Source: Tubiluchus corallicola
Taxonomy: Eukaryota; Animalia; Priapulida
DNA length: 64,000 nucleotides
Reading direction: 5' to 3'
Assembly: GCA_030141605.1 (NCBI GenBank)
Contig: JAQGDQ010000331.1
Span: 1-64,000, forward strand
Below are positions 2,457 through 64,000 of this stretch, in pieces (positions within the stretch are counted from its first letter, which is position 1; every line of letters begins with the position of its first letter). Under the pieces are notes generated by a model. It was not told the origin of the DNA and ran no database searches. It was given only the letters and a program-made list of their open reading frames with translations. The translations under genes and the position numbers were made by a program.

Positions 2457-3281
2457 ATGGAAACATTATTGTACTACAAATGCACTGTTTGTTCTGATTA
2501 CTTTGTGAATGAGGAATTATTCTTTATACATACAAGGGCAGTGCATTGTAAAGTATATATTTGCCAAGGCAATGACACTTCACTTATAACTGATGGTGAT
2601 ATTATACCAGCAGTTAAACAAGAACCCCTTCCTATTGATGAAGCTGATGTGGGAGATAGTAGTGTACAGGAGGGAGCATTTACTGAAAACGAAATTTTAC
2701 TGTCTGTAGATGATGTTTCTGCAGTTAACAGAACATGTGCAGGAGACATTAGTGTGACAGATTTGATGCACTGTAAATCATTAAGTCCATTTATGACAAG
2801 TAGCGCCAGCAAATGTGGTCTCATTTTAGAAAGCGATGAGAGCAAAGTATCGTCACATATACCGTTAGCAAGTACAGCCAATGTGGATGTGCTAGATGCT
2901 CATCGTTTGAGCTCAGCCACAGTTGCTTGCAACCAGTATTCCAACCAGCCATTCAAAAGCCAAGCTATATTACCATTGTCCAGGCAATCTAATGAGAAAA
3001 AACTTTTTCATTGCATGTCAACATCTGTTAAGAATGCATTTACAAAGCCAAAATGTTTAGGACGTTTACACTCAAATACTTGTGTTTCAAAAAGATCATT
3101 AGCAGTTGCAAAGAAAAGAAAAATCTTATCAGCAGCTGAGAAAATAGAAGTATCTACACTATTGGATTGTGGTTGGAGTTGCCGCCAGTTAGCTACAAGA
3201 TTTCAATGTGGTAAAGACCAAATCAACAGAATGAGATTAAAAACTGGAGACTTCAAGACAACTGCATCTAATAAAACGTGA
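2457..3281 (+). CDS. 274-aa protein with an N-terminal C2H2 zinc finger and a C-terminal CENP-B/Tigger/Pipsqueak-type helix-turn-helix
   Basis: Long ORF. YKCTVCSDYFVNEELFFIHTRAVH fits C2H2. KRKILSAAEKIEVSTLLDCGWSCRQLATRFQCGKDQINRM fits the CENP-B N-terminal/psq HTH pattern. A splice acceptor TTATTTTTAG at 2361-2370 suggests a 5'-UTR intron. Confidence 0.75.
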   Translation: METLLYYKCTVCSDYFVNEELFFIHTRAVHCKVYICQGNDTSLITDGDIIPAVKQEPLPIDEADVGDSSVQEGAFTENEILLSVDDVSAVNRTCAGDISVTDLMHCKSLSPFMTSSASKCGLILESDESKVSSHIPLASTANVDVLDAHRLSSATVACNQYSNQPFKSQAILPLSRQSNEKKLFHCMSTSVKNAFTKPKCLGRLHSNTCVSKRSLAVAKKRKILSAAEKIEVSTLLDCGWSCRQLATRFQCGKDQINRMRLKTGDFKTTASNKT

Positions 3282-32700: not shown

Positions 32701-35700
32701 TTAAGTTTTTCAACGCCCTCACTGATTCACCATCAATTTTTTTACTTTCATTCTTTCAATTGTACAATAACTTTTGGCAGCAATGGTATTGAGAATTCAT
32801 AAAAATGTAATGTCACTAGTTATGCCACTCTAGTGGACATATAAGGACATAAAGTAATAGTCATACTGACACTACCTATCGTTACCTTACAGTCTGCTTT
32901 TTCTTAAAACACTTTCAAAGTATATATGCGCATGTCTGAAATCACCCTAAAGCTGATAAAATCAGAAACAGCTTGCTCACTTATGTTACTAACCGAGTTA
33001 TGCAAGCACCATAGTTTCTTTGACGAATTCTCAAGTGCTGTGTGTAGTAGTGCTTTTATAGCATATAACTTACACAAGCTTGAAAAAACTGGAGAAAAAG
33101 CAAAGCATTAGAACAACAGCTTGTAAATTTATTATATGTTTCTTGGCAGAGTTAGAGTGAAACGAATAGCAGAGTGGTCAGGGTGTAAGAAATAGTAGAA
33201 TGATTAGAATGTGTGCTTGGCAAAGAAAATTAAGCAGCGATGAGTTTTGTTAGTAATTGGATGAGTGTTCTTCAAGAAAACAACTTTTGTATGGTTTATC
33301 TGCTGTACTGTCTCTAGCTAATTCTCGTTGATGTTGTCGGGTATATACAAACAATTTTTATTAAAATTCTCATTCAGCTACATGCCTCTGTTGGTTCAGT
33401 ATCTTATTATGTGTTGTTGATAATGGGCTAGATTCCAGTCTGCCAGTGAAACAGTTCAACATTTGTAGTAATAGCGATACAGAGTGGTCTATTCTGGCTT
33501 GCAATAACTGTGTAAAAAATATAAAATAATGCCAATTGTTGCAGTGCTGTGCAAAACTATGCAAGCTCCTAGTAAGATTATAGTATACTTATCTCTTTTC
33601 CTGTAGTAGTTCATTTTTTTACTTTTAGGATGCTTCTCGACTATCTTGGCATGGTAAAGGTGATTATTTTGCAACAGTCCTGCCTCAGGGTGAAAACTGT
33701 TCTGTATTAATACATCAGCTTAGTAAACAAAGATCACAGGTTTTTATATTTAACTATTTCATATTTTCTTCTATAACATTTATTTCGATATTTTTTCTAT
33801 AATGTTTTAAAGTTTGTTTGATTGTTTTTAAGAAGCTTCGTTGTCTATCTTTTTTACTTTATAACTGGAAAAGTTATAATGCAAAAATTAGAAATATGTT
33901 CATAAAATAGCCCTTTGGATACTTCTGAAATGCTATCATTTGTGTTACCAAGTTTTTTTTATTGTTCTCCAGCTGTTAACATTATAAATATATATATAGC
34001 AGTAAGGTGCTCTAAATTTTATCAGCACATGTTCCTCATTCTTGTAACTGTGATACTTTGTAAAAAACTGGTATTTTGACTAGTTCTTTTCCTTTGTTCT
34101 AGAATCCATTTAGAAAATCCAAAGGCTTGGTGCAGTGTGTGTTATTTCATCCGACAAGACCATATTTGTTTGTCGCAGTAAGATTCTTTTATTTAATTAC
34201 AAGTAGGGTTGATCGTGCTAAACTTGTAGGCAAAATTATGATGATAGCATTAGTTAAACTGTCAGCATAGTTTGCTGTAGAAATTTGTAGCTGATTCACA
34301 CTGCATAAAGTTTGAGTAAGTATTAAAAATATACATGGAAACTTTTGTACTGCGATGCATCAAGTTCTGGGTCTATTCCTACAAGGATGAAAAAATGTGA
34401 TCATTATTTGCCATTGCTGCTGAATGTTTTTGAGTTTTCAGAGCATTTTTCAAGAACACCTGGGCAGCAGGTAACAACACTATTTGCCAAAACCAAGAAT
34501 GGTCTAAGAATAGTTTTTGTCTGGCTTTTTTTCTACTATGAAGACTGAACATTTTGGTAAATTTGTCCTTGTAAATCCAACTTCAACTTTTTGTGAGTCT
34601 GTGCTCCATTTTCTGAAAATATTGATGTCTTTTTAACTATAGTTTACATTTTCAGACTCAGCGATATGTGCGAATATACAACTTGTTGAAACAAGAATTA
34701 TGCAAGAAGCTACTGACAAACTGCAAGTGGGTGTCTAGTATGGCAATTCATCCTCAAGGTAATAGTACAATTATTTCTTTCATATTCTATATACTTTTTA
34801 ACTTATTAAATGACTTTGTGGTGCAGATGAAGGCTGATTATGAGGTCCGTCAATAGGTAAACTTCAAAATGCCATCTGTGTAGTACGCTCACGTAATTTG
34901 ATATATAAAATAGCTGCATCGCCTAGTAACTTTGTATTTTTTGTTAAACTGCTATAGGACAATTTGAAAATACACGACTTTGCTTTACAGGCGACAACGT
35001 GATAATTGGGAGTTATGACTGCAGGTTAAGCTGGTTTGACTTGGACTTGTCAACAAGGCCTTATCGCACTCTTAGGTGAGTTTCAGATAGTGGTTCATAT
35101 TATCTGTTTCATAAAAATTTTCAGTTCAATTCTATTTTTGTTGACTGTATTCACTGTTTTCATAATTAGTTAAGAAACAGTGACCAGATACCATGAACAA
35201 TGATCATGATCAGTTAGTATGTAGGTTATCCTTTAACCTAAAGATAACTAGTCTACTAAACTCATCATTGTCATCATCGTCATCATGAGCAAAATTATGG
35301 TAATAACATAAGTGAAGTTGTTAGTATAGCTTTCTGTAGAAATTAGTAACAGGTTACCCTGCAAAAAGTTTGAGTAAGGATCAAATTTGGATGGAAATTT
35401 TTCTACCTGGATTTAGAAGATGGATCTAGTGTTGGTTCCATTTCTACAAGTAAACTGAGAGTAAACTTCTACCACTTTCATTCACGTCTCATAGATTAAA
35501 AATATCTTGTCATCGTTGTCGACGTCGCCCTGCCAAACGAAAGCAATAGTGATAGGAATAGCAAAACATAGTAGTATGCCTCTTTTGTCACTAAGTCACT
35601 TGTAGGATAGAATAAACTCCTAACCAAATGGCAGTAGCATCTATAATGAGGCTGTGCACTTTGGTCGCACTGAATTAAAATATTTAGACAATTTTTATAA

Positions 35701-36547
35701 GAATATAATTTTTTTCTGAGAAAGGTAGCTGATAATTTAATTGTCTAATGCAGGGTGGGGTAATTTTCGAAAATCTGTGCCTTTCTTCCATGCTTTCTTA
35801 CATAAAACTACATTCATCTATATATATAAAGCTATCGTTTTACTTTTGTGAAATTGTATTTTTAATCTGTAGAATCAAAATGACTTTCTATCCTAAACAT
35901 GACTTTTAATATGTTGTTAAAGATTTGTGCTAGTTTTTACTGCATACACTGTATACTGCATACACTTTACTGCATCAAAAGTTTTATATTCCAGGCATCA
36001 AAAGAAGGCAATTCGTCAAGTGTGCTTTCATAAGCATTATCCATTGTTTGCCTCAGCTGCAGATGATGGCACTGTTGTTGTATGCCATGGAATGGTGTAC
36101 AAGTAAGTAAACACTTACTATAACCAAGAGCATTTTAAGTTAAAAGATTTTTGAAGCACTACTAATTTAACTTTTTCTAATTTTTTAACAGTATAATTTA
36201 TTTTTAATGTGTGTAGAGTAAAGTCATATTCACTACTTCTGATAGAGATAATTTGAAGCACAATTTCAAGTACATTCGTGAAACTATTGTATTTTAAACT
36301 TCAAAGAAGAAGGCTGTTATTTAAACTTTATAGAAAAAGTTGCCTTATTTGCTGTGCGATGGTCTGTATATTAATAATTGTTAAATATTTTAGTGATCTG
36401 ATGCAGAACCCTCTGATAGTGCCGGTCAAAATTCTTCGTGGCCACAAAATTGACAACGATGTTGGGGTCTTAGATTGTAAATTTCATCCAACACAGCCAT
36501 GGTTGTTCTCTAGTGGATCAGATTCTACAATTCGGCTGTACTCATGA
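8704..36547 (+). CDS. BOP1: Ribosome biogenesis protein BOP1/Erb1 (BOP1NT + WD40), multi-exon
   Basis: Phase-consistent GT-AG exons: 8704-8852, 15011-15094, 22220-22371, 23519-23636, 23948-24049, 25435-25656, 26418-26579, 28753-28833, 30733-30802, 31615-31747, 32321-32504, 33629-33739, 34103-34177, 34656-34758, 34991-35075, 35995-36102, 36394-36547 (TGA). Signature peptides: [108 protein letters not shown]. Start is uncertain: in-frame ATG at 8715, or an unresolved upstream exon. Confidence 0.95.
9939..10666 (+). mobile_element. Non-autonomous Helitron
   Basis: Starts A|TCTGTATATATAA and ends GCAGGGTCTTTGCTAG|T, i.e. 5'-TC and 3'-CTAG inserted between A and T with no TSD. Related pieces occur at 52440-53060. 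Confidence 0.7.
12127..13188 (-). CDS. SLC39A11: Zinc transporter ZIP11 (GufA-type ZIP family), 353 aa, intronless CDS nested antisense in a BOP1 intron
   Basis: Complete ORF. Peptides [38 protein letters not shown], the metal-site helices [19 protein letters not shown] and [16 protein letters not shown], and C-terminal [14 protein letters not shown] minus-strand acceptor at 13207-13208 implies a 5'-UTR intron. Confidence 0.96.
   Translation of the reverse strand: MIEGANPVLQAFLGTLMTWGLTAVGASVVFFCRTGQRKILDGSLGFAAGVMTAASFWSLLDPAIALAESSPTYGSKGQWAFVPVAVGFILGALFVFGADLLLPKLGAMSGPIALLMNDEKDKIKFESDCSPNHLDNLLMKESGTHITIVEYETAKNKLSTSDSELYYRKKRLTPKSSRESVVENDNKKSPAKAAYRTKQDSWKRMLLLIIAITVHNIPEGLAVGVGFGAINSTDEATFEKARNLAIGIGIQNFPEGLAVSLPLRGYGFSVWKSFFWGQLSGMVEPLAGLLGAFAVSVAQPILPYALAFAAGAMIFVVYDDIIAEAQTGGNGKLASLTGIVGFVVMMSLDVALG
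17712..18065. mobile_element. hAT-type MITE, 354 bp
   Basis: Imperfect TIRs TAGGGACGTATCGGATCC / GGATCCGGTGCATCCCTA. The 8-bp flanks CAAAAAAA and CTAAAAAA differ at one position. Confidence 0.7.
18901..19092. mobile_element. hAT-type MITE, 192 bp
   Basis: TIRs CAGGGCCGGC / GCCGACCCTG, internal repeat GCCTAGGGCCTC, flanking direct repeat CTTCGGG (18894-18900 and 19093-19099). Confidence 0.8.
19100..19400. promoter_or_regulatory. CpG-enriched patch with a CTCF-like motif; possible promoter or first exon of the nested ZIP11 gene
   Basis: CpG is locally frequent against an AT-rich background. GTGACATCTAGCGGCG near 19307-19322 reads CCGCTAGATGTCAC on the minus strand. A minus-strand donor-like G|GTAAGT lies at about 19220-19226. 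Speculative. Confidence 0.25.
20228..20337. repeat. Tandem duplication of a 55-bp unit followed by GACT/GCT-rich low complexity
   Basis: TGGCC.ACTGGTT.ATACCTTATAAA.ATGCTAGCTGC.TGC.TACAGACTAACT occurs twice. Confidence 0.8.
22840..23270. mobile_element. Probable Helitron/Helentron-related interspersed repeat
   Basis: GC-richer island between T/A-rich flanks. It shares motifs (GCTACAG..., ATA..TC.AATGAAAG.TCT.GA) with the Helitron at 9939-10666. Confidence 0.4.
26890..28109 (-). mobile_element. Internally deleted Sola2-like DNA transposon
   Basis: About 150-bp imperfect TIRs (GAGTCGTTCCAGGTCAAATCAA... / ...TTGATTTGACGTAGCAAGACCC) and 4-bp flanks TAAT/TAAC. The internal minus-strand relic [16 protein letters not shown]...[28 protein letters not shown]...SGRQ resembles the C-terminus of such transposases (from memory). 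Confidence 0.6.
28848..28990. mobile_element. pogo/Tigger-type MITE, 143 bp
   Basis: TA|CAGTGGGTGCCATTTATTAGACTCAC ... GTGAGTCTATTAAGTGGTGCATACTG|TA: ~26-bp TIRs and a TA TSD. It begins 14 nt after a BOP1 exon end. Confidence 0.8.
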
Positions 36548-47100: not shown

Positions 47101-50100
47101 TGATTCTCTAAAAAAATTATGAAACTTTACCCTATATGCTTATTAGCAAATTTTTGCTTCCGACGATATAGCCCAATCATTTTTTCAGCAGAAATTTTTC
47201 AATCCTATTTTATCATAGCTATAACTGCATTATCACTGTAGTAACTGATGCATAACGGATATCGCTGCATGGTTAATTTAATAAATTTGTTATTCATTGT
47301 TGTTAGAATGTCTGCCATGCAAAAACATATGAATGAGAAGAAAATAAGTCTCGTGTAAGGAATAAATTGTTGTGCGTGCAATAAAATATCTGCTAACATT
47401 ATTAATAATTATTTTGGAACAGCAAAGAATTTGTTCATAAGAGACACATTAGTAATGTTTTAGAGTCATTGAAACAGATGTACTAGCCCCACCTTCCTTC
47501 CTGTATATGCAGCAAAATAATATCATGTTGACAAAAGGTGTAACAGTAGGACAGAGTTTATAATGCTTATTGATGAACAAAGTCACAAAAAGGAGGTATA
47601 AAGAGCTCTGCATACTGCTGATATTATAGTCAACTTACAGAATAAAGTATTATAAAAACAGTGCAAAATTATTTGCTACTTGACAGACTCATTTTTGGAA
47701 TAAGGTAAAAATTAGATTAAGCCGTCTACACTACTACACGATGTACAATGAAACAATTTTGTAACTAAAAGGAGAGCAGTATGCTTTGGGTAACACCATT
47801 TTTGGAGGTTGGCATTTTGAACTAGTGCACTGAAACAGTTGATTCTACCTGAGACAAATAGCCTATAAATCTGGTCACCAGGAGCAATATAAAATCGCGA
47901 AGTATGCTCTTCGGAAATCAATCAAGTCTGCCAAACATGATTTTAAAAACAAATTGGCGCAAGACTTTTTGTCTAATGACACTCGAGAACTTTGGCAAGG
48001 ACTTAATAAAATTATGAATTACAAACCAAAATCAAAACATATTAACTTAGACGACCCAACTTTACCGGATAAATTGAATAATTTTTATAGTCGTTTTGAT
48101 AAAGAAACGGGACCATTATTAAATTATTTGAATAGGTCCACTTGCAATAACACTCCATCTCTTGTTATACAAGAAAATGATGTGCGGCGATAGTTTGCCA
48201 AACTGAAAATTAAAAAATCAGCAGGACCGGATCGTATAACACCGTGGCACGTGCGATACTGCTCAGATCAACCTTGCCTATATTTTTACTCATAATTATA
48301 ATTGGTCTTTAAGCATTTGTAAATTCCCTATACAGTTTAAGCAATCTATCATTATTCCTATGCCAAAGAGAAACCCAATTACTACACTTAATGACTATAG
48401 ACCTGTGGCTTTAACATCAGTGTTAAGCAAAACACTAGAACGTTTGATCTTACATTTCCTGAAATCTGTTGTTTCACCATTTTTGGACCCATTTTAATTT
48501 TCATATCGTGCTAATCGTCCCACAGATGATGCTGTAGGGCTTGTTGTTCATGATGTACTAATGGACCTTGATAAACGTAATTGTTATTCCAGAATCCTTT
48601 TTGTTGATTTCAGTTCAGCTTTGTCACACATCCTGCAACTAAAATTGTAGTATAAAATGACGGAACTTAACATACTTGACTGGCTGTGTAATGGAAACAC
48701 TACCATTTTTTCAACTAAGGTTGTTAATACAGGAGCTTCGCAAGGGTGTGTCCTGTCTCCAATTCTATACAAGTTTTTTATATATGACTGTGACGTATCT
48801 TCCCCAAATACTGTGATGGTAAAATTCGCTGATGATACCACACTGGCTGGCCTTATTTGCAGTAACAACGAGACTAATTATTTTCAGGAAGTTCAAAATT
48901 TAACACGATGGTGCAAACAGCATAATTTAGAACTGAATGTTTCAAAAATAAAAGAAATTATCGTAGATTTTAGAAAAGAGACTGATGGAAAAGCACCTTT
49001 GCTTATAAATAATACATCTGTACAAATTGTTAAGGATTTCAAATTTCTGGTAATAAAAATTTCGGATGATCTTAAATGAGAAGCTAATGTACTCTGTTGT
49101 GTAAAAAAGGCCCGCCAGCGTTTGTACTTTTTAAATCATTTAACAGTGCCCCTGCTGTGATGGAGAGTTTTTATCGTACAGTAATTGAAAGCGTCTTAAC
49201 AACATCCCTCACTGTTTGGTATGGTGCTACCACACAGGGAGATCGCAATGCTCTTGATCAAGTTGTTAAATGTTGTTAAACACATAGGGTGAATTTATTT
49301 CTTTGCATTTTTTTTATTTTTTCAGCACTATTTTATTATTTTATGAATTTATCTCTGCAATATATTGCAGCTGTGAAACAACACTGTTAAATTTTACAAA
49401 TCTAAAACTCTCCTGCATAACCATCTTCATCTGGAGAGGACATCACATGCAATGAAACAATCAGCTGTTGGTTTCGTCAACTGCTTTTTTTATGCTTGCT
49501 AATTCCGTCTTGATAAAATATAATTAAATGCTTTGGTTAACACTTAAGGATTTTTCTTTATTAAAGCAAAAGAATGGATGTTATACATCCACAGAACAAA
49601 GATTTCACATACGTATTTTATCTATTCCAGTTTTGTGTTCCTAAAGGATTTTGCATCACTGTTGCTGCATACAAATATCATCTAGAAGAGAATCAAGAAT
49701 TAGTGCAGTCTATTCATCAACTGCATGAGGTTGCGACGTGAGTGAATGCATTAATTATTAAAACTGTCTGTTGGAAAATCCCTTAAAAATTTTAATCAAT
49801 TTTCACTGTAAATTTACTGCAAATTTTAATTCTTGTTGCTAATTTTTTGTTAAATGTTTGCTTAAGAAAACAAAGATGTGGTAATTTGAACGAGATGTCA
49901 AAGAAAGTGTCAGAAATGTTTCAACAGAGCAGTATGAGCAATGTTTTAAAAGATGCTCTTGCATTAGAAATGGAGCAACAGTTTGGTGAAAATTGGAATC
50001 ACTTAAAAGTCGCTGTGAGATCCTCTGCTGTAGGTAAGATATCATCGTTATGCATAGCTCAAAATGATTCATGACCTAAAATATTATAAGGATGAGAACA

Positions 50101-53100: not shown

Positions 53101-56100
53101 AAAGAGTAGGAAATGTTCTGTAACATATGTTCTGGAACACTTCTTGTCTTTACCTTTCAAAAAATTCCAGGCAAATGTTGTCATCACCCACCATTCTACT
53201 ATGTTACAGAGAGCAATATATATAAGTTAGCCTATTCCCAACTTAGAAGCAGTACGCAGAGACCGTGTAGACGTGTAGAATGTATGCGCATTACTGATCA
53301 GTGGTGGATGGATCTAATAGTGTTTGCCTAAGCACACAGTGGTGACATTGTGCAAAATGTTTTTGTGCACTTTATTATGCTGTTGTTAGCTGTGTTGTTG
53401 CTGTGATGTCGTCGACAGTAAATTATAATACATTCTTCTGTAGAAATCATGGTCAACCAGTTGCAGCAGACATGGGAGTTTGTATACAAGAAATGGTAAA
53501 TGCTGACAGTGCAGGTGTTTTGTTTACTAGAGATCCAGTTACTGGCAATCCTGGAATTATGACAATAAATGTATCCTATGGACTTGGAGAAGTAAGTACA
53601 CATTTACGGGTACATCAAAGAAAGCATAGCATCAGGCAAAGCAGTAAAAAAAATACAATCGTTTTTCTTGGAAAAAACACTTTTGATTCAAAACTCCAGT
53701 GTGAGCTGACTTGTCGGCATTTCCTAGCACAGTAATTTATTTCAATAATTGAAATCTAATGAAATAAGTGTAATCTAAATTTATAGGTGGAGAATGGCTT
53801 GTGAAATGCCTTTGCTAATGCGACTTAACCTTAGGTAATGGTTTTGAGTTCAAGAGTAATAAACTAGTAATTGACTTAATAACTCAATTTATTTCAAAAG
53901 GTGATCATGATTTGATATTTTGACGATTTGTGATTGTGTGTATTTTCTGATTCAAGGCTGTTGTGTCTGGGATTGTTGAGCCAGATACCATCACACTGGA
54001 GAGAAGCTTCAATAATAAACTTTCTGTAAAAGACAAAGTTGTTGGAAGCAAGAAAGCTCAACTTGTTCTTTCAGGTGAGCTATTGAAAATTTATACATAA
54101 CAAAATCTATTTATATATCCGCATTCTCTGAATTTTCCTTATAAAATTAAAACTTGTCTTAATTGTGACAGGCTTGGGTGGTATGGTATGCAAGACACTG
54201 ACTAATTATGTAATGGTTTAGCACTAAAATTCAAATTCAATTCAAATTAGTTTGAAATAACTTAACAGACAACTTTATTTAGATTTTACCTGTTTAAGCA
54301 GGATTATGCAACCTGCGCTGAAGTATACCAGGTTTTGCAATAAATGACTAACTGTAAAGCTACGTTGATATGACTTTCTATGTCAATATTTGATGGTGCA
54401 TTGGTATTTTTTATCTTAGACTCTGGTGGGATTAAAGAAGTAACTACTGCCAATGAGGCTGCTGATTGTTGTCTGAGTGATAAATTAGCCTTGCAACTAG
54501 GAGAAACTGGCATATTAGTAAATATCACCTTTATGGCTATTTTGTATGTTACCTTTACAAAAATAAAAAGTATTTTAAATAAAATACGTTAAAATTACCT
54601 TAAAATAACTTTAGTTGTCATCAGTCTTTTGTCTTATTTTACTTTATGTGAAATGTTTACTTAAATACTCTGAATACTTAAAGAGCTGGAATTTTGAGAT
54701 AATATTTTAAAACAGTGCTTGTTCACCTTAAATAAATGGTTCAATGCCCAATTTCTGAAAAGATTGCTGCCTTTCATAGTGCTTTAACAGCCCTACTTAA
54801 GTGGATCTTGTCACAATTCTTAAAACTTTGTGAGCTTGTGCTTTTTCCAAGATGAGTAATATATAATTGAAATATAATTGGAAATTTGACTTGTAATTTG
54901 AAAATTCAACTTTTCAGATTGAGCAGTCTTTCTCCGACCCTCGAGACATTGAGTTTGCCATCAAAGATGATGAGATCTATCTTCTGCAAGCTCGGCCTAT
55001 CACATCATTTAATACAGAATCTGATGATGAACTCATTCATGAATTTGATGGACCAGTTATCATGGAACAAGAAATGTTTACCACTGCTAATACTGGGTAG
55101 GAATTTAATATTTGCCTTAGTATATTATATGCTACTCAATGCTATTCTGTTGCCTTTACTTTTTCACATTTTTCCTTTGAAAATTTAACAAACTTTTACA
55201 AGATATTTTTAGAGTGCATGAACTATAAAAAATGGCTGTAAAAATGAAAGCTGAAGAACTCTCATTTCTACTGCATAATTTCGTAAATCGAAACATAATG
55301 CTGTTTCATGGCCTTGATAACGAGTTACGTTCTGGTGTGAGAGTTGCTGGATTCCGACTTGCAGAATTGTCAATTGAGCAATCAGTATGTAACGTAACAA
55401 GCTTTGTAGAGCTGTAGCTGTTTATCACTTGCTACATTAAACAAGTAATTTTGTTGAAATACATTGCTGCAGCACATATTAAAAATATTTTGCTCGCTTC
55501 TAACCTGAATGCATGTATTATTGTTTGTTTTTAGAGAAATGATGCCACAGGCAATGACTCCATTAACAGTGGACATTTTTATAGGAACACTTGGTGGAAT
55601 TGGGCAGGTAAGCAAAAAACACGTTGCAGTTCACGTAATTTGTATATTAAAATTTACTCATTTCCGTATTTATATTATTTTTGTTCATTTACTTTTTCAC
55701 TTTTGCTACTGATTAAAAGCTTTTAAGCATCAACAGCTTTGGCTACAAGAAATAATTAAAATTTATGATTTGAAAATATCAGTTTTAAGATAGAAATAAA
55801 CTAGTTGTTCGTGAAAGGAAGACAGGATGATTTGCCACATACCCCATTTTCAAGTCCAATAAAAAGTATGCATTTTAACATGATTAATACTGCAAAAGCA
55901 TTTCTGATAATTAAATAATAAGTTAAAAATTTAATTGATGGGCGAGCCCAACTATTGATGACATCACAAACTAACATTATTCTCAGCAGCAAAAATATTC
56001 TACGAGCGTGTTGCACATGTTGGTGAAAGCGAAAATTGTAGTACAGTGTTACTGTAAAATATTCAATGTGTTGTACTAAAACTAGGCAGATAGGCGGATG

Positions 56101-59100
56101 TTTTAAGATACCGCTGTGCTCACGCATGAGCTGTCGAATGTGCGTAGTTCATCAGAAACTAACACATCTGAACTGAGAAGTACAGCATCTGTTTTTTTGT
56201 AATGCGTTTCCGAAGTGCAAGCGCTAGTGCCCATCTAACTAGCAAATGGTGAAATGCATGTAACAGCGAAGAACTAGTGCCGCAAACTCGAACTTTTGTT
56301 TGTGTGGTAATAATTCTTTTACGCAAGTCATTTTTGAAAAAATAGTGTGTTCCCTTTCAATATTTTAAAGACTAGATTGTTTTGACCTACGGTTTAAGAT
56401 TGGGTCCGGTTTTGCTTGAAACAACACGTTTGAAGCGCACTGCTAGCAATGTTCATGAATGCTAGTATGAATATCAAAGTACAAACCCAGCATGTTTTAT
56501 GATACATAGTTATTTAAACCCACTAAAAAATTGATTGCTTAGTTGTAGTTGTACAGTTTTGTGGTACAGTAAATTAATCTAAACCTCAAAAATTTCACCT
56601 AGCACCATTCAGGATAACTTGTACAATATTATAATTTTTTTACATAAACTTTGAAACATTGGAAGGTGAATAAAATTTAGTTGCTAAAAATACTAAATGT
56701 TTAATACTAGGTCCAATTTTCAGTTTAGAGAAACTACAATTGTTTTGGGGATTTAAGGTTGTGGCAGTTTTAGGTCACTAGCATATCTTTGCCTTTTGAG
56801 CGGCCCATTTCTGATGTCTACTAAAACTATAATCTGTTTTATAGAGTCTGTTTATGCCTATTTGATTTTTTTTGCCTTCTTAGTCATAATTTGATTTTAA
56901 TAATGATGCGATGATTCTACATTTATGTTAAATAGCTTGAAATGCAACAGATGTCTGCATTTATGTGGCCTTGTCATATACCTCAGTATGCACCAGCACA
57001 GAGTTATCACTTCTTTATAAATGTTATATCAGTAAGTTAAAAGGTTAACTTTAAATGTTAGTTGTTTTTTGACTTATATTTTAGTGTGTTTAGTCCTTCA
57101 GCCTTGTCAGTAAACAGTTTATTCCACTGGAGTATTTCTTTTTTGTTAAGCAAATACTTTCTGCATTTTCACTGCAGTACTGGTCCAAAAGTAATTGGTC
57201 AGAAATTCAGTACTGCAGAAAAAACATATGACACTAGAATAAATGTAGAATCATCAGCATATTTAATGATGTTTATTATTTACAACGTCAAAATGTGGTG
57301 CACTTCTGCTGGTCATTAAAATCACTTATAATTTGGTTTATGGTGTTGACTTTGTTCTTGATTAGTCTAATTTGCTTTTCCCTTACAATTTGATTTTAAA
57401 ACTCAGTCGATGATTCTACATTTATGTTAAATAGCTTGAAATGCAACAGATGTCTGCATTTATGTGGCCTTGTCATATACCTCAGTATTTACCTGCACAG
57501 AGTTGCCACTTCTTTATAAATGTTATATCAGTAAGTTAAAGGTTAACTTTAAATGTTAGTTGTTCTTTAGTGTGTTTAGTCCTTCAGCCTTTTCAATAAG
57601 CGGTTTATTCCACTGGTGTATTTCTTTTTTGTCAAGCAAATACTTTTTGCATTTTCACTACAGTACTGGTCCAAAAGTAATTGGTCAAAAATTCAGTACT
57701 GCAGAAAAAAAGCATGTGGCACTAGAATAAATGTAGAATCATCACCATATTTAATGATGTTTATTATTTACAATGTCAAAGTGTGGTCCACTTCTGCTGG
57801 TCAGTAAAATCATTTTTAATTTGGTTTATGGTGTTGACTTTGTTTTTGACTAGTCTATTTTGGTTTTTCATTACAATTTCATTTTAAAACTCAGTCGATG
57901 ATTCTACATTTATGTTGAACAGCTTCAACAGCAACAGATGTCTGCATTTATGTGGCCTTGTCATATACCTATGCAAGGACTTTCTTGTAGTTGCCACTTC
58001 TTTATAAATGCTTTATCAGTAAGTCACAACTTAAGAAGTAATTGATGTACATTTTTGTGCATTTATTTTTGGTGATTTTTATTGAAAGATTTTGCCGCAG
58101 TGGCAATTTTTGTCTTAATCAAATGCCCTTCTGCTATTTTTTCAAGAATTCCTGTACTACAGTGAAAAAGCTTTAATTGTGCTGCAGTGTAAGCTTTATG
58201 ATGCTAGTATAAATGTAGAATCATCACTGTATTTGTGCTGCCTACAAAGAAAAATTTGCTTAAACTCATTTGCTATGCAGCTTTGTGATACAAAAGTGGA
58301 ATTATTACAGGTAAAGTTTTCACTTACGATTATACTTGTTTTTATGATGATTCTACATTTACATTAATTACACAGTTTCAACGGCGACGTATTTTTGGCT
58401 CTGTGTGGCCGTGCTATGTGCCTATGATTTTACCTGCTTACTGTGGCCATTTTTTTGCTAACTGCTTTCTAGTAAGTCTTACTGGTGTTTTCCAAAAAGG
58501 TAAATGTGTTTTATCCAACGTTTAAAAAACTTCAGACAAACTCATATTCTGAACATATGAAATTTTAGATCTGCAATTTTTTCTTAGAATGTTGCAAAGT
58601 TACTAAATGTTCTGTTCTTGCTATTGTTATGTGCAATTTGATTTCTGTGAAATCAGAAAATGGTAGAAGTCAGGCATTTGTTGTATATCTAGGAAAAAAT
58701 AAATTATTCCAAGCAGACATAGTTTAGAAAATTGGAAACGTCCCTACAGTGGAGTATGCAACAGCATAATTTTTTGGATAACCCCCACTGCATTCTTGCC
58801 TCTGGAGAAGTGATAATCAATGCTGTAATATCCTCCATCTTTAGATTTGAAGTTTTTTAAACGTTTTATCTTGAGAATCATACTTGCTGTGATTTGTGTT
58901 CGTTAGGTCATTTATCTGTTATTGATAAACATGCTCTTTGTGCACTCTTTTGCTTGTCTTCAGTATGTAATTGTTTTTGTCAAACGTTAAACTGCAAATT
59001 GTGCTGTTAGTTCAAATTCGTGTAAAAATCAAAGGTTCAGTCTTCACAAAGCTCTGCTTTCTCGTTATTTAGCCCCATGCAGTGAGATTTGGGAGTTGGG

Positions 59101-62100
59101 GCTGAAACCATCTCTCTGTTCAGTCTGTCTGAAAAAGATATAGCTAGATAAAGACTAACCATATTGAGTAAATGTGTGCGTGGGTGTATGTGATTGCTTC
59201 TTTTATTGCTGTGATTAGTCATTTAATTTATTGTTGTAGAGAATGATGTTTATGATGTTTGTTTTATACATGATGCATACATGTGTTTTTGCATGGGTGT
59301 ATGTGTGTACTTTATAACAATGCGAATTTGAGAAACTTGAACAGCCCTGTTGATGGGAAATGTTACCTTTAGGAATAACTTGCATAATCAAGGGATGTGT
59401 TTCTTGCTAATTTTCCATTCTTCAATCTGTGAACAAATGTTATTTGAAAAACTTGAAAAAAATGTAAGATGCTAGGTGGCTGAGTAAGTTTCAGTCAGAA
59501 TTAAACATTAAAAGCCACTAAGACACAAAGCAAAAGCTATTTTTATATATGATTCTGGCATTTGTGTGACCAATGATTATAGTGAAGAGAGGTGATGCCA
59601 ACACCCAAGAAAAAAAGACATGCTTGTTTCAACTACAAACATCAATGTAGAATCATCACTGTTGATAAATCTGTATCGTTGTTGCACAGTCACTTATTGA
59701 TAGGGCTTTAAATAATTTTGTAGCTACGTGTAATTGCATTGACATATATTACTAGGCAATGCACGAAAAGTTTGCTGGATTTCGTATGCCAAGCTATTCA
59801 CCAATTGCCTTTGCTTCTTATAGTGGTCACTTTCTGATCAATATGCTTAATGTAAGTTCATCATAGTTATCAATTTTTATATTTGTAACCAATACTACAG
59901 GTCACCCAGATGTTTGCAGTTTTGGCATTTTGTTTGAAACTACTGTTGCATACATGATAAATGTGCCATTTTTTATAATTATTAAGGATACCATTTTACC
60001 ATTCTAATAGGCATTTTATTGTGTGATTTCTTAAGAATGGGGCTTCTGTTGTACATTACATTGTTTGTTTGTAGAAACAGCAATTCTCTGTGAAAGAGTT
60101 CGTTTGTGTTACATCACATGCATGCTTGAACGAAGAGATTTTGCGTGATCAGCAAAAATTACTTTTTGCAATTATTCTTTTTTTAGTTACGAAATTTAAT
60201 TTTTAATTTTTTCTAAATTTGACACTAAATTGAGTATATACATTGGTTTCAATATACCATGCCTTTTTTCATTAATGGACAAATAAAGTTCACTGTTTAC
60301 GCATTGACTGATTACTTCAATATTGGATTACCACTAAAAATACACAGTACACTTAAGCAGCATTCTGTTACCAGTATAATGAATTTCACTTTCATTTTTG
60401 TGTTATCAAAACTACTAATACAGATTTGTGAAGCACTGAACCTTTTCATTTGTATCTTATTCTATGTTTGAAAGTAGAAGTAGAATTTGTGAATAATAAT
60501 ATAAAAGTGATGTAAGTTATTTTTGAACTGTTCTTTATCTAACAGTATGAACTGGTCACTTCAATAAAGCTTCTTCATAAGTTCTATTTGCATTAATCAC
60601 TATTATTAACAGTTATGGTTTGTACCAATATTTATCTTTCACGGTTCTTTTTCTTGCTTTTTTGCAAATTGTTTAATTGTGCAACTGAGACAATTTTTAG
60701 AAAATATACTTTGTTAACATACTATATGATGACTTAAATTGTATTTACTTGTAAATATTAAATGTTTTATTAATGGGAGTTGCAATAATGTTAATTTTCA
60801 TACATTTTGTTACTTTAGTAAAGGAAGTTTTCTGGCTTAATGAGTAATTTAAAGGGTGCTATTGATTGAACTGCTAATGAATCACTTGTTAATGATAATA
60901 CATGAAATAACTCTTGTGTTACTTAGTAATCACTTTTACGATACTGCAAAAATTCGAAAGTAATTAAACTGAGTATGCTGCATTAATAATATTTTTTATA
61001 TCTGCAACTCATTAACAATGATACTGTATATTTGCTCACTCAAAATTCATTCGCATGTAGGGTCTGTATTATATGAATGAATATACTATGCTTGGTGCAA
61101 CAGTTGCTTCATCTCGAGTGTACATGGAAATGATATTGTTTGGCAGACGTTTGGATGACTCCATAGAGGATATCATTATACATCGTTTTAAAGACACGTA
61201 CGTGCCTTTATGGCGGAAAGTTCGATCATGGATTCATGTGATGAGTGTATGCCATATTAAATTATCATGATATATAATAAGTTTTTAAAAACTAAATAAA
61301 ATGCTAATATTGTTGGGCTGAGTTGCTTCGTTTTCTGCTTAACAGATGTTTTCAAACTATGCAATAGACATTTTAAGTACAATCTACATGAATGATTCTT
61401 TATTAAATCATTATCGGCTTTGTTAAATCCACGGTAAGTAAGTTTTAGGGCTTTTTGTAAAGCTGTCTTATTGTAAAGCTATTTTTTACTTTTTCTATAG
61501 TTGCTGGTATACAGAATTTATTCTCATCTTCTTCGTAATTTCTATTTAAATGTAAAATAATGTTTCTACTTGTTGTATAGTCACCTAAGTATTTACTGCC
61601 AGGTGAGTATTGCTCATTCCTTCGAGTAGAATAAAGTAAGAATTAAAAATAGGTGATCGATAATTACGATATATAGGAGGGTGACCGGTTGTGTTATATC
61701 AGTGACGATTCTGGTATGTATAAATATAATTTTTTGAAGTTTATTTTTAACTACATCTTTGATATGCTGATACGTCGAGTATCATATCAGGTGGATTTAA
61801 TTATCACCATCTTTATTGGCACTTGATAAGGGAAAGGGAAACCCATTGTAAGGTAAAAAGCTCACATTTTCATACGTCTACAAATGTCTTCTTATTACAG
61901 AACAAGAGAATAAAACCTTGTTGGTGCATTATCTTATCATAATGTTGATTATTAGTATTTATTAAGCTACATATAGTAAAATGTAATTGCTTTAATTATA
62001 ACACAAGATAATGTAGCATGTTGTAAGCAAAAAGTTGTCATAGTAAGTCTGTTTAAGTGACTGAACTAGACTAAATGGTTTAAGCAGATACACAATGTAA

Positions 62101-63892
62101 TAGTGAAGTTTCTTATTGTGTGCTTGCTAGAAGCTTCTTATTTAGCAAATGCTGTTATGAAACATTCGTTGTGAAAGCGGGGTTGTGTCAATAATTTTTT
62201 AATGTAATTTAATTGTTTTATTAATTATATATTAATTTAATAATTAATAATAATATAGTAAAGTTGGGAATCAGTAACCATAAAAGCATGATTTTAGTGA
62301 GCTTATTATTGTTTTGAAATTATTGTCATCTTTTATAATGATTCAGCAGTAGAATTTGGTTGAAGATCTTGATTTGTCACAGACTCCCGAAAAATTATTT
62401 GTTTTAGATAACACAGTAAAAGGATCAGATTAACTACAGAATCAAATAAAATCTTTTTATTAAAAGGAAAAGATTGATTGAATTTACAAATATGCTTTGG
62501 CTTTTTCCGAAGTATAACTGGAATTCCTTGCCACCAAATGTTACTCATCATGCTCGTTCAGTTGCTCAGAAGGATTATATCGTTGATGGAAACTAGTACG
62601 TGCATTTCTCTGATATTATTTTATTCTGAATTTTATTCAGAATCTACAAATTGTGTATATTTTGTGTAACTATAGTTGTGTAAACTCATAAGTAAATGTT
62701 TAAAATTGTTCTCAATGTTATGTTAATTATTTAATTATGGTAATATGTACCGTTCTGTAGTGATAATAGTTTTCATTCTGTAGACAATGTGGGAAACAAC
62801 TGTTCTCAGTCTTGGTTAAAGCGTTTTTCACAGTAGACAAAGAATCCAAAGTGACATCTTAAATAATTAATGCCTGTTCTATTCACTTATCTTTGGGATA
62901 ATAATGATTCTTACATTCTACCTGGTAGTGTGAAGTGAGTGAGGGCCCATGTTCACAAACCATCACTAAATTAATGATATCGTTATCAATAGTTAACTGA
63001 TGGCTTTGCGAAACTAGCCTCAGCAAACATCAGGAATTTGTTAATGGTGATTTAACTAACCAGTGAGTGTATTTGACAGAAAAACAATTCTTCGTGTACA
63101 AGAATCGTTGGAAAGAATATGTCGAATATTTCAAATAGGAACGAAAAAAGAATTCTAAGGCAACTTTCTTAATACATAAACTTCATTTCTGTAATTACTT
63201 ACCTAAAATGTTCATGTGTGTTTTAAAGGAACAGCCTAAGAGTGACTAAAGGTTTAAAAGTTTGGTAGCACTGATTACACTTCTGGTTTCTGTTTTTTTC
63301 AAAGTTATATGATTATGGACTTTCTTGCTAAAAACACCAACAACTGCTCATATTAAAATTTATTATGTATGCAACAGTAGACCATTTAAACTTTAAAGCT
63401 TCCAAAATTATTTGTAAAAATATGATGATGAGCCTAATGTAATTTGCTTTGATATTTTTTGTAAAATGAGTATTTTAAATATTCTTTTCCACTCTTGTTT
63501 TTTTGTTAACTTTTCCATAATTTTATTTTAGAGTTTACTGTAGTCATGTGTGAAATACGTATACACTATTTGCAAAATATTGCAATTTTGTTATTATAGT
63601 AGTGAATACGATAAAAATAATAGATTAGTTGCATAAGTTATTTACCTATTTGTCCTAACTAATTTATATTGTTGTTTCCTTTTAATAGCATCTAGCTATT
63701 TTTACATAGGCCATGTATGAGGGGAATAGTGATACATTGCCTATTGACACTAAGGCAGTAAGGGTATCGATGGAAATGTCTCTTTTTGGGCGCACATTAG
63801 ATGATGATGTTTCAGACCTTGTCAAGCAGCGATATAAGGCAACTTATGTACCAAAGTGGAAACAATATAAAGTATTGGTTTTTATGTATGCT
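38434..63892 (+). CDS. PEP-synthase / rifampicin phosphotransferase / PigC-like dikinase-family protein (TM segment + N-terminal beta-rich domain + PPDK_N ATP-grasp + start of substrate domain); 3' end lies beyond the window
   Basis: Phase-consistent exons: 38434-38569, 39100-39266, 39737-39826, 40241-40407, 41517-41585, 41740-41859, 42554-42719, 43012-43064, 43376-43509, 43614-43761, 44162-44220, 46984-47099, 49631-49737, 49867-50033, 50237-50307, 50648-50712, 53444-53591, 53957-54074, 54420-54517, 54918-55096, 55535-55607, then alternative clusters A and B. PPDK_N motifs: LVGGKG, VPKGFCIT, VAVRSSAVGEDSAEASFAGQMETFL, KCWASQF, MGVCIQEMV, AGVLFTRDP, YGLGEAVVSG, PRDIEFAI, YLLQARPIT, followed by TANTGEMMPQAMTPLT. 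Confidence 0.92.
40645..40966. mobile_element. hAT (Charlie-like) MITE, 322 bp
   Basis: TIRs CAGTGGTTCCCAAA / TTTGGGAACCACTG and a perfect 8-bp TSD ATTTAAAG (40637-40644 and 40967-40974). Confidence 0.92.
41141..41221. repeat. Interrupted (TA)n microsatellite
   Basis: Seen directly. Other TA/CA tracts lie near 5366-5389, 9909-9931 and 52033-52110. Confidence 0.9.
45138..46829. mobile_element. Non-autonomous DNA transposon with long TIRs (Academ-like), 1.7 kb
   Basis: About 100-bp imperfect TIRs starting TAGTCTAG(T/G)CCCA, a 3-bp TSD TGT (45135-45137 and 46830-46832), and internally repeated CAAAATGGC motifs. The superfamily call rests only on the TAG ends and 3-bp TSD. Confidence 0.7.
47800..49290 (+). 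mobile_element. Degenerate, 5'-truncated Rex1/Babar-like LINE reverse transcriptase
   Basis: Peptides LPDKLNNFYSRFD, KSAGPDRI, NDYRPVALTSV, RILFVDFSSA, GASQGCVLSPIL, VKFADDTT, WCKQHNLELNVSKIKEIIVDFRK and FYRTVIESVLT, with stops and frameshifts. Lies in an intron of the dikinase-like gene. Confidence 0.9.
51165..51400 (-). mobile_element. Tc1/mariner transposase C-terminal remnant
   Basis: Minus-strand translation YPVDYGIWNPFKETVH...EELK...*NQSPLKKIR...NGGYMEHL matches the mariner pattern NPxDYxIWxxLKxxV...GGxFEHL. Confidence 0.6.
52440..53060 (+). mobile_element. Helitron fragments (a 3' end followed by a 5' part) related to 9939-10666
   Basis: TTGATTATTTAAGTGTATTTA...AGGGCTTTGGCTAG|T (ending ~52614) mirrors 10619-10666. 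TCTATATATA...GCTACAGTTTTAACGACTGCACCATTT mirrors 9939-9990. Confidence 0.55.
56936..57031 (+). CDS. Alternative exon A1 (96 nt, phase 0-0): LEMQQMSAFMWPCHIPQYAPAQSYHFFINVIS
   Basis: AATAG|...|GTAAGT, open in the frame set by exon 55535-55607. Confidence 0.85.
57435..57530 (+). CDS. Alternative exon A2 (96 nt): LEMQQMSAFMWPCHIPQYLPAQSCHFFINVIS
   Basis: AATAG|...|GTAAGT, open frame, paralog of A1. Confidence 0.85.
57923..58018 (+). CDS. Alternative exon A3 (96 nt): LQQQQMSAFMWPCHIPMQGLSCSCHFFINALS
   Basis: AACAG|...|GTAAGT, open frame. Confidence 0.85.
58376..58471 (+). CDS. Alternative exon A4 (96 nt): FQRRRIFGSVWPCYVPMILPAYCGHFFANCFL
   Basis: CACAG|...|GTAAGT, open frame, with WPC..P and HFF.N conserved. 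Confidence 0.85.
59756..59851 (+). CDS. Alternative exon A5 (96 nt): AMHEKFAGFRMPSYSPIAFASYSGHFLINMLN
   Basis: ACTAG|...|GTAAGT, open frame. P12, P16, H25, F26 and N29 are conserved with A1-A4. Confidence 0.85.
61061..61246 (+). CDS. Alternative exon B1 (186 nt, phase 0-0): GLYYMNEYTMLGATVASSRVYMEMILFGRRLDDSIEDIIIHRFKDTYVPLWRKVRSWIHVMS
   Basis: TGTAG|...|GTATGC, open frame, homologous to B2. Confidence 0.85.
63710..63892 (+). CDS. Alternative exon B2 (183 nt, phase 0-0): AMYEGNSDTLPIDTKAVRVSMEMSLFGRTLDDDVSDLVKQRYKATYVPKWKQYKVLVFMYA
   Basis: CATAG|...|GTAGGT, open frame. Shares RVxMEMxLFGRxLDD and RxKxTYVPxW with B1. Confidence 0.85.
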
Positions 63893-64000
63893 GTAGGTAT
63901 ACATTTATTATTTTAAATGTTTTGTTTCTGCAAATTAAAGAAGTATTGAATTTGTGTTTATGATGAGGTATTTTCTTTGACTATAAACTTGCTGCTATGT

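What the first reader, a model, noticed from the sequence alone, without database searches (positions are those of the whole stretch)
56910..59657. Competing RNA base-pairing code (docking/selector-like) across the five-exon cluster
Seen: motif X (GATGATTCTACATTTA) ends 10-14 nt upstream of exons A1-A4 (starts 56910, 57409, 57897, 58346), over the likely branch-point/acceptor zone. Its exact reverse complement X' (TAAATGTAGAATCATC) lies 166-195 nt upstream of A2, A3 and A4 (57240, 57728, 58210). Upstream of the very diverged A5, whose intron is otherwise not alignable by eye, AACATCAATGTAGAATCATC (59638-59657) still pairs 19/20 with 56910-56929. Flanks extend the pairing with single bulges: ATGC before X1 with GCAT after X'1, and CAGT before X2/X3 with ACTG after X'3/X'4. 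Established: Dscam, 14-3-3zeta and Mhc clusters use competing docking-selector duplexes. Inference: X1 pairing with the X' before exon n masks the A1 acceptor and loops out the skipped exons, while local X'-X hairpins mask other acceptors. The docking-like element appears to have been duplicated along with each exon. The exons preserve frame and the introns are 357-1284 nt, so neither NMD nor steric hindrance would explain exclusivity.
Basis: partly seen in the sequence, partly recalled or inferred. Interest (0 to 1): 0.9.

Follow-up and report, generated by a model that had tools for sequence, protein, structure and literature searches.

The report
Five-exon splice-site masking RNA chain
In an enzyme gene that likely comes from a priapulid worm, five duplicated exons alternate with four intron copies of a 16-base sequence complementary to the bases just before four of the exons, which would likely let the RNA hide all but one exon at a time, extending a two-exon switch known from human ATE1 to five exons.

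Summary
Five homologous 96-nt exons (A1-A5) lie in a priapulid rifampicin-phosphotransferase/PEP-synthase-like gene. Four X copies cover the A1-A4 acceptors; four complements (X', called Y2-Y5 here) lie between successive exons. X and Y are the only identical runs of 9 nt or more between diverged paralogous introns, so selection is likely. The single-docking-site reading is only partly supported: flank extensions are at chance level, and modelled X1 pairs with Y2 and Y5, not Y3 or Y4. The layout matches human ATE1 (R1/R4 at the acceptors, R3 between), scaled to five acceptors and four blockers. Holding one of X1-X4 open leaves the other three paired at 0.94-0.99. A weak relic at A5 pairs with free Y5 only in a nascent-transcript fold. 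At equilibrium all four X are paired, which favours A5. New: the next exon is also duplicated (B1/B2), with a 23-bp long-range docking/selector-like helix. No RNA junctions or orthologous DNA were obtained, so exclusivity and function are untested. The scan has noted docking/selector pairings on other DNA before, none as an ATE1-like chain. New variant of a known kind.

The parts
54918..55096 (+). Constitutive exon E-2 (end of the ATP-grasp / PPDK_N domain, QARPIT motif)
   Evidence: Pfam PF01326 E 2.2e-8; one contig of run X2 (guessed RNA, 7 differences in 175 nt) joins it to the next exon across a 438-nt GT..AG intron
55535..55607 (+). Constitutive exon E-1, ends in phase 0 before cluster A
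56898..56909 (+). 5' flank of X1; predicted extra 12-bp helix (4 G-U) with 59673-59684 behind Y5
   Evidence: probability 1.0; p 0.03-0.08 against random flanks
56910..56925 (+). X1, acceptor-zone element of A1 (covers a candidate branch A at -22)
56936..57031 (+). Exon A1, 96 nt, 32 aa
57172..57218 (+). Local hairpin just upstream of Y2 (11 bp); copy at 57661-57701 upstream of Y3
   Evidence: probability 0.99 and 0.87
57240..57255 (+). Y2 (X'), exact complement of X
57409..57424 (+). X2
57435..57530 (+). Exon A2 (95% identical to A1)
57728..57743 (+). Y3 (X')
57897..57912 (+). X3
57923..58018 (+). Exon A3 (82% to A2; 10 non-synonymous and 0 synonymous codon changes)
58210..58225 (+). Y4 (X')
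58346..58361 (+). X4
58376..58471 (+). Exon A4 (53-59% to A1-A3)
58517..58865 (+). 18-bp perfect inverted repeat (58517-58534 with 58848-58865) that would shorten the long A4-A5 intron
59638..59657 (+). Y5 (X'), 15 of 16 in the core; its one change (A to C) matches a G in the relic x5
59727..59742 (+). x5, weak relic of X over the A5 branch zone (8 of 16 identical to X); 9+3 bp with Y5
   Evidence: -10.2 kcal/mol, top 9% of windows; 114 of 2000 shuffles as good; probability 0.90-0.96 in folds ending at the A5 AG, 0.19 or less once exon sequence is added
59756..59851 (+). Exon A5 (43-49% to the others); the only A exon that Priapulus P0131 hits, likely the default
59940..59962 (+). D, docking-like element for cluster B, 89 nt after the A5 donor
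   Evidence: 23 bp with S, -33.5 kcal/mol; null max 18 in 100 resamples
61061..61246 (+). Exon B1, 186 nt, phase 0-0
63358..63380 (+). S, selector-like element 330 nt before B2; pairing with D would loop out B1
63710..63892 (+). Exon B2, 183 nt, paralog of B1 (54% identity over 37 aa)

Best explanation
Five duplicated exons alternate with four complementary intron elements, and these likely form a chain of competing RNA helices that would mask every acceptor but one. Shown: the order E-1, X1 A1, Y2, X2 A2, Y3, X3 A3, Y4, X4 A4, Y5, x5 A5; each X on an acceptor zone; each Y able to pair with any X. Inferred: (1) a Y pairs backward, closing a loop around the exon before it, or forward, as a local hairpin on the next acceptor; (2) during transcription each acceptor is open only until the next Y is made (224, 213, 207 and 1186 nt after the A1-A4 donors); (3) if the spliceosome takes acceptor n in that window, the next Y stays free and the register shifts, so every later acceptor is masked as it appears, ending with Y5 on the weak x5; (4) if none is taken, all four X are paired and A5 is the default. 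Duplicating an X-exon-Y unit adds one exon, one X and one Y, so the n to n-1 count would keep itself. The variable 32 aa lie in the inferred substrate-binding domain, so the isoforms would likely differ in substrate range.
For: Same geometry as ATE1, where similar elements just upstream of both exons compete for one element between them and hinder one of two 3' splice sites (PMC7797038). Selective retention of X and Y. Before Y5 is made, holding any one of X1-X4 open leaves the other three paired to a Y at 0.94-0.99 summed probability, 4 of 4 cases. Against a control with Y blocked, Y adds 0.8-10.1 kcal/mol to opening one acceptor and 7.2-13.6 to opening two, 6 of 6 pairs. Opening A1, A2 or A4 alone costs 10.4-13.4, about the range of 9 constitutive acceptors (5.8-13.3). 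Growing prefixes capture X1 by Y2 and X2 by Y3 at 0.96-0.98. Free Y5 pairs with x5 in register at 0.90-0.96 in folds ending at the A5 AG, with a U-A to G-C double change relative to X/Y. The latest duplication boundary falls at the start of X: A1 and A2 share sequence from there, while X1 has its own 5' flank. All five exons keep length, frame and splice sites at 43-59% identity while their introns carry many indels; homologs carry the segment once. The next exon cluster has its own 23-bp helix.
Against: No transcript covers any A exon, so inclusion and exclusivity are unshown. No orthologous DNA, so no cross-species covariation. The fifth link is weak: 114 of 2000 shuffles match it, the double change has about a 1 in 6 prior (8 of 48 single changes, counted by eye), and it falls to 0.19 or less once A5 sequence is present, when x5 pairs with the A5 end and donor whether or not Y5 is free. 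In full-cluster equilibrium folds Y5 goes to X1 (0.72) or X2 (0.21), never x5; with A3 held open Y4, not Y5, is left over, so A(n)+A5 double inclusion is not excluded without the kinetic assumption. Within the free model alone, pair costs differ from the sum of single costs by only -1.4 to +3.2 kcal/mol. Opening A3 costs 22.3, far above the others. Dscam1 exon 6 is reported to splice largely after transcription (PMC12962786, passage), a caution for step 2. Folding models of 1.6-3 kb ignore proteins.
Confidence: 0.5

Rival explanations
1. X1 acts as a Dscam-type upstream docking site: X1-Y(n) loops out the earlier exons and frees X(n), while local Y-X hairpins mask later acceptors.
For: X1 has its own 5' flank, which extends pairing with Y2 and Y5; X1-Y5 is the strongest duplex (-44.5) and dominates the full fold at 0.72. 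No Y lies before A1. The same count of X and Y applies.
Against: X1-Y3 and X1-Y4 are 0.02 or less when A3 or A4 is held open; their flank p values are 0.27-0.91. X1 is captured by Y2 first in growing prefixes. It does not explain A1 choice or A5 blocking.
Confidence: 0.2
2. The helices mainly silence A1-A4 by default, so that A5 is used; a protein factor, helicase or editing opens one exon in some tissues, and exclusivity against A5 comes from proteins, from the x5/A5-donor hairpin or from splice-site competition, or is incomplete.
For: Four X and four Y give full pairing at equilibrium (unpaired 0.02-0.06), with A5 the most open acceptor (0.51 vs 0.05-0.19). A5 is the only A exon that the Priapulus homolog P0131 hits. 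x5-Y5 is weak.
Against: It needs unknown factors. It does not account for Y5 carrying the one change that suits x5. A1-A4 look maintained as coding exons (a stop-free outcome by chance 0.17 and 0.14 in neutral simulations; no indels).
Confidence: 0.2
3. X and Y are a neutral relic, for example the terminal inverted repeats of a small transposon copied along with the exon, or kept alike by gene conversion.
For: Read as Y...X the unit begins and ends with TA; A1-A3 are recent duplicates; X overlaps splice signals, which constrains it anyway.
Against: The sequence between Y and X is diverged and gapped while the arms are identical. Y5 survives alone in an unalignable intron. Exon sequence 10-14 nt from X3 and X4 is only 59% identical, so conversion tracts would have to be tiny and fall on both X and Y. 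Contig depth over the cluster in run X1 is 0-48 against more than 10,000 over the true repeat at 55700-56420. No further copy with fewer than 3 mismatches in the window. A genome-wide count could not be made.
Confidence: 0.08

Closest known systems
Human ATE1 exons 7a/7b, elements R1, R3, R4 (Kalinina et al., PMC7797038; 12 passages and section 14 seen)
   Same: Similar elements immediately upstream of each duplicated exon; a complementary element in the intron between; competing helices that hinder a 3' splice site rather than activate it.
   Different: Five exons and four blockers instead of two and one; every Y can pair with every X, so non-neighbour registers exist; the last acceptor element is degenerate; no R2-R5-type long-range module found for cluster A; no experimental or cross-species support here.
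Dscam1 exon 6 docking site / selector sequences (described in PMC6071210 parts 1 and 3 of 5, and in passages of PMC11802352, PMC10790352, PMC12962786; the original paper not seen)
   Same: Competing intronic duplexes in a tandem cluster; a selector-like element upstream of each of A2-A5; the D-S pair of cluster B has this geometry.
   Different: No single docking site in cluster A; the X copies sit on acceptors; pairing would repress rather than activate; the chain would block downstream exons without a global repressor.
Bidirectional pairing in srp, Dscam exons 4/9, MRP1; downstream docking in 14-3-3zeta and Mhc (PMC4691838 passages; PMC6071210)
   Same: Accounts for skipping on both sides of the chosen exon by RNA pairing; arises by duplication of stem arms.
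   Different: Uses two docking sites in the outer introns and two sequence families; here one family alternates inside the cluster. PMC6071210 found no general tendency of internal introns to pair with each other, which is what happens here.
Rifampin phosphotransferase RPH-Lm (PDB 5hv1, 5fbs; PMC4844700, 11 passages seen) and animal 'putative phosphoenolpyruvate synthase' proteins
   Same: ATP-grasp, central substrate-binding and His-swivel architecture: the model of the Priapulus homolog aligns over 950 columns, E 4.6e-40.
   Different: 24% identity; substrate unknown; the A segment could not be aligned residue by residue to the rifampin pocket.

Membership tests
ATE1-type competing acceptor-masking helices | Similar elements immediately upstream of each alternative exon | tested here: met
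   X1-X4 identical, ending 10-14 nt before A1-A4; for A5 only an 8 of 16 relic
ATE1-type competing acceptor-masking helices | Element in the intervening intron complementary to both neighbours' acceptor elements | tested here: met
   Y2-Y4 exact for both neighbours; Y5 strong to X4 and weak to x5
ATE1-type competing acceptor-masking helices | The last acceptor (A5) is masked when its blocker is free | tested here: inconclusive
   0.90-0.96 in folds ending at the AG, 0.19 or less with the exon present, 0.00 in full folds; shuffle 114 of 2000
ATE1-type competing acceptor-masking helices | Exons are mutually exclusive in transcripts | not testable with these tools
   No RNA contig on any A exon
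ATE1-type competing acceptor-masking helices | Conservation across species | not testable with these tools
   No orthologous DNA; conservation among paralogous units is met
ATE1-type competing acceptor-masking helices | Disruptive and compensatory mutations change and restore splicing | not testable with these tools
   needs a minigene
Dscam-type docking site / selectors (cluster A) | One unique docking site in a flanking intron | tested here: not met
   Four identical X copies, each on an acceptor
Dscam-type docking site / selectors (cluster A) | The docking site pairs preferentially with each selector | tested here: not met
   X1-Y3 and X1-Y4 0.02 or less in the A3-open and A4-open folds; only Y2 and Y5 favoured
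Dscam-type docking site / selectors (cluster B) | Upstream docking site complementary to a selector before a distal exon | tested here: met
   D-S 23 bp over 3.4 kb, null max 18
Dscam-type docking site / selectors (cluster B) | Several selectors compete for the docking site | tested here: inconclusive
   Next-best partner of D is -19.3 against -33.5; the window ends 108 nt after B2
Bidirectional pairing (srp type) | Second docking site downstream of the cluster | tested here: not met
   No strong Y partner other than X1-X4 up to 61060; longest string shared by the A5-B1 intron and i12 is 9 nt
Miniature transposon with terminal inverted repeats | Conserved interior and high copy number | tested here: not met
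   Interiors diverged; low contig depth; genome-wide count not possible
RPH / PEP-synthase-like dikinases (host protein) | ATP-grasp, substrate-binding and His-swivel domains | tested here: inconclusive
   ATP-grasp exons are in the window; the full architecture is shown for the Priapulus homolog only; the window ends before the His domain

The most novel reading that the evidence does not exclude
A self-scaling 'musical chairs' code for mutually exclusive splicing: n acceptors and n-1 interchangeable complementary blockers, where commitment to one exon shifts the pairing register and masks all later exons as they are transcribed, with no docking site and no global repressor. Unequal crossover at X keeps the count, and together with the neighbouring docking/selector cluster it gives at least 5 x 2 substrate-pocket variants of an RPH-like kinase in a priapulid.
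Probability: 0.35. Interest if true: 0.82.

Novelty: new variant of a known kind. Interest (0 to 1): 0.62.

Why it matters
The upstream docking-site model leaves open how exons downstream of the chosen one are skipped (stated in PMC6071210). A chain of acceptor-masking helices would answer that by counting alone. It would also show that the two-exon ATE1 logic scales by duplication to five exons. The cluster is compact (3 kb), with short, near-perfect elements, so every link can be tested in one minigene, including a clear prediction for slow Pol II. It would extend RNA-pairing control of exon choice to Priapulida, and point to splice-based diversification of the substrate-binding region of an animal rifampin-phosphotransferase-like enzyme of unknown function.

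Tried and rejected
No whole genome is held, so no genome-wide count of the 16-mer. Sequencing runs: no RNA holder listed; 2 runs given. Run X2 (guessed RNA) shows only the E-2/E-1 junction and has no cover on A1-A5, B1 or B2; this blank says nothing on expression. Run X1 matches the window over Y3-A3-Y4, X4 and Y5-A5-D but may be the window's own source, so it is not independent. Its five listed differences at 57917-57930 turn the A3 start into the A1/A2 form, most likely an assembly bubble between near-identical copies; not used. Metagenome scan: 78 loci, best matches short and prokaryote-like, 0 of 78 with the X core. Homolog search with B1: 0 of 8 candidates. The three isoforms of the Priapulus homolog differ by short in-frame deletions, not by swapped exons. 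Rfam: 0 matches in 55000-64000. RNAalifold on three paralogous introns finds Y-X with 16 invariant pairs and no informative covariation. A profile of the A segment finds no sixth copy, and a profile of B no third copy, among 2945 six-frame pieces. The flank 'code' was tested and is at chance level. Residue-level mapping of A to the RPH pocket failed. NMD and steric hindrance rejected: exons are 96 nt and introns 357 nt or more. A DNA-inversion reading rejected: it would turn exons antisense, and no joint inside cluster A is listed. Precedent searches: no title or abstract start describes an acceptor-masking chain over three or more exons, and none covers priapulid splicing. The library lacks most subscription journals and no supplements were read, so a precedent may exist. 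Two searches on the enzyme gave 0 papers; one gave the RPH paper.


Full report
Naming. i12, i23, i34 and i45 are the introns between A exons.

1. Observation. Every coordinate holds. The 16-mer occurs perfectly four times on + and three times on -, and once with one mismatch at 59642; 0 of 100 shuffles reach the 11 matches seen at 3 mismatches. A1-A5 are 96-nt open exons with AG and GTAAG ends. Introns are 403, 392, 357 and 1284 nt. The 19 of 20 match of Y5 holds equally for X1, X2 and X3. Of 47 perfect inverted repeats of 14 bp or more within 3 kb in the window, 16 are X-Y pairs, 25 are AT microsatellites and 6 are others.

2. Gene and host. The exon before the cluster hits Pfam PPDK_N. The four best of 150 listed representatives for that exon are Priapulus caudatus 'putative phosphoenolpyruvate synthase' or uncharacterized paralogs at 74, 64 and 68%, plus one unnamed 66% hit that was not looked up; a fourth Priapulus paralog follows at 63%. 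In a quick tree of 49 rows (the careful search did not finish) the window's exons group with the two Priapulus rows at 100% SH-aLRT. The host is therefore likely a priapulid; the identities suggest it is not P. caudatus itself. A model of the Priapulus homolog (mean pLDDT 80.9) matches rifampin phosphotransferase over 950 columns. The A segment (homolog residues about 466-499) follows the ATP-grasp domain and forms a helix end, a low-confidence loop and a beta-hairpin. In RPH-Lm the start of the central domain carries the substrate-cradling residues 336-387 (PMC4844700). That A lines the pocket is inferred from position only. Homologs carry this segment once, and it varies strongly among Priapulus paralogs, which is why one exon per message is expected.

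3. Selection on X and Y. i12 and i23 are 93% identical and uninformative. Against the older i34 (75-78% over aligned columns, many gaps) the only identical runs of 9 nt or more are Y and X. i45 cannot be aligned, yet shares 19 nt of Y with i34 (null max 15 in 500). X could be partly held by splice signals (it covers a candidate branch A at -22 to -26); Y cannot. The X1-Y2 helix (17 bp) exceeds 200 of 200 resamples and all 15 constitutive exons tested (9-14 bp). The exons keep length, frame and splice sites at 43-59% identity. A2 and A3 differ by 10 non-synonymous and no synonymous codons, a weak hint of diversifying selection.

4. Which helices form. All X-Y cores are equal (-19.7 kcal/mol at 37 C; -18.1 with Y5). 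Flanks add little beyond chance: 2 of 32 tests at p<=0.05, both with X1 (Y2 and Y5). In growing prefixes X1 is taken by Y2 (0.98) before X2 exists, then X2 by Y3 (0.98); later states rearrange but leave one X free. In 56850-58480 (four X, three Y), holding one acceptor open leaves the other three X paired at 0.94-0.99, by neighbour or nested pairings, not by X1-Y3 or X1-Y4. Y-dependent penalties are 0.8-10.1 kcal/mol for one open acceptor and 7.2-13.6 for two; 9 constitutive acceptors cost 5.8-13.3. Against this, pair costs in the free model are within -1.4 to +3.2 of additive. With Y5 included all four X are paired, X1-Y5 is 0.72 and A5 is the most open acceptor. With A3 held open, Y4 is left over and Y5 stays on X1. 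So equilibrium alone gives A5 by default and does not forbid A(n)+A5.

5. The fifth link. The A5 branch zone aligns with X at 8 of 16 positions (and the sequence). Y5's single core change is the one that turns a U-A pair into G-C with this relic; the duplex is -10.2 against -6.2 to -6.9 for Y2-Y4. In a fold that ends at the A5 AG, free Y5 pairs with it at 0.90-0.96, closing two local hairpins. Once exon sequence is added it drops to 0.19 or less, and the zone pairs with the A5 end and donor instead; 114 of 2000 shuffles do as well. Suggestive, not established.

6. Mechanism. Shown: layout, complementarity, retention. Inferred: a co-transcriptional race in which each acceptor is open until the next Y appears (224, 213, 207, 1186 nt after the donors); commitment to exon n frees the next Y, which masks the next acceptor 76-153 nt further on, and so on down to A5; without commitment A5 is used. 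[quoted passage not shown] The most recent duplication starts at X, so a unit of X, exon and Y is copied and the n to n-1 count is kept; this fits the general duplication model of PMC6071210 but with both arms copied. Odds: chain 0.5, X1 docking 0.2, default silencing with other control 0.2, neutral relic 0.08.

7. Second cluster, outside the given coordinates. The next exon is also duplicated: B1 61061-61246 and B2 63710-63892 match the same homolog residues. D (59940-59962) and S (63358-63380) form 23 contiguous pairs with one G-U, -33.5 kcal/mol, null max 18 in 100, and would loop out B1. This is ordinary docking/selector geometry and makes RNA-structure control of this gene more credible. 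More B copies may lie beyond the window.

8. What is missing. No RNA covers an A or B exon, no orthologous DNA was found, and no genome-wide count was possible. Exclusivity and function are untested.

9. Novelty. Competing pairings are a known kind; ATE1 is the two-exon case. Six searches listed no acceptor-masking chain over three or more exons and nothing on priapulid splicing, judged from titles, abstract starts and passages of nine papers: PMC6071210 (parts 1 and 3 of 5), PMC7797038 (passages, section 14), PMC12772994 (abstract and outline), and passages of PMC4844700, PMC11802352, PMC4691838, PMC6191721, PMC12962786, PMC10790352. Subscription reviews and supplements were not seen. Earlier scan notes hold 14 docking/selector findings in at least 5 other genomes (8 shown), none for this genome, this protein or an ATE1-like chain. 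Verdict: real feature, new variant of a known kind, interest 0.62.

Noticed in passing
window 59940-59962 with 63358-63380; exons 61061-61246 and 63710-63892: Second duplicated exon pair (B1/B2) with a 23-bp long-range helix that would loop out B1; the cluster may continue past the window end.
   Followed up: yes
window 59734-59747 with 59841-59855: The A5 branch zone is predicted to pair with the end and donor of A5 itself (14 bp), which would hide both of its splice signals; the A5 donor region resembles the 5' half of Y.
   Followed up: partly
window 57240-57255 and the other Y copies: Y resembles the U2 snRNA branch-recognition stretch (GUAGUA, recalled, from no call), so Y may compete directly with U2 for X. 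Not tested.
   Followed up: no
window 57172-57218, 57661-57701, about 58152-58188: A hairpin lies 20-26 nt upstream of Y2 and Y3, and a differently sequenced one may lie upstream of Y4; its arm looks like a Tc1-type terminal repeat (recalled).
   Followed up: partly
window 58517-58865 and 59193-59596: Several stable hairpins, one with an 18-bp perfect stem, compact the long A4-A5 intron.
   Followed up: partly
window 55700-56420: High-copy repeat remnant in the intron before A1 (summed contig depth above 10,000 in run X1).
   Followed up: partly
window 12127-13200 (-): Intronless ZIP11 zinc transporter ORF; one unnamed 92% relative, all named ones at 54-62%.
   Followed up: partly
window about 25363-36547 (+): Exons that look like the ribosome-biogenesis gene BOP1 (recognised from recall).
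   Followed up: no
window 2448-3281 (+): 277-aa open frame with a zinc-finger-like start and a helix-turn-helix-like end (by eye).
   Followed up: no
window about 47880-49300 (+): Broken LINE-like reverse transcriptase remnant in an intron of the gene (by eye).
   Followed up: no
window 61347-61434 (+): 88-nt stretch with good AG and GTAAG ends between B1 and B2 but stops in all three frames; a possible dead or poison exon.
   Followed up: partly
proteins P0131, P0132, P0134, P0135: Priapulus caudatus has at least four paralogs of this enzyme that differ most in the A segment, so it may diversify by gene copies where this species uses exon copies.
   Followed up: partly
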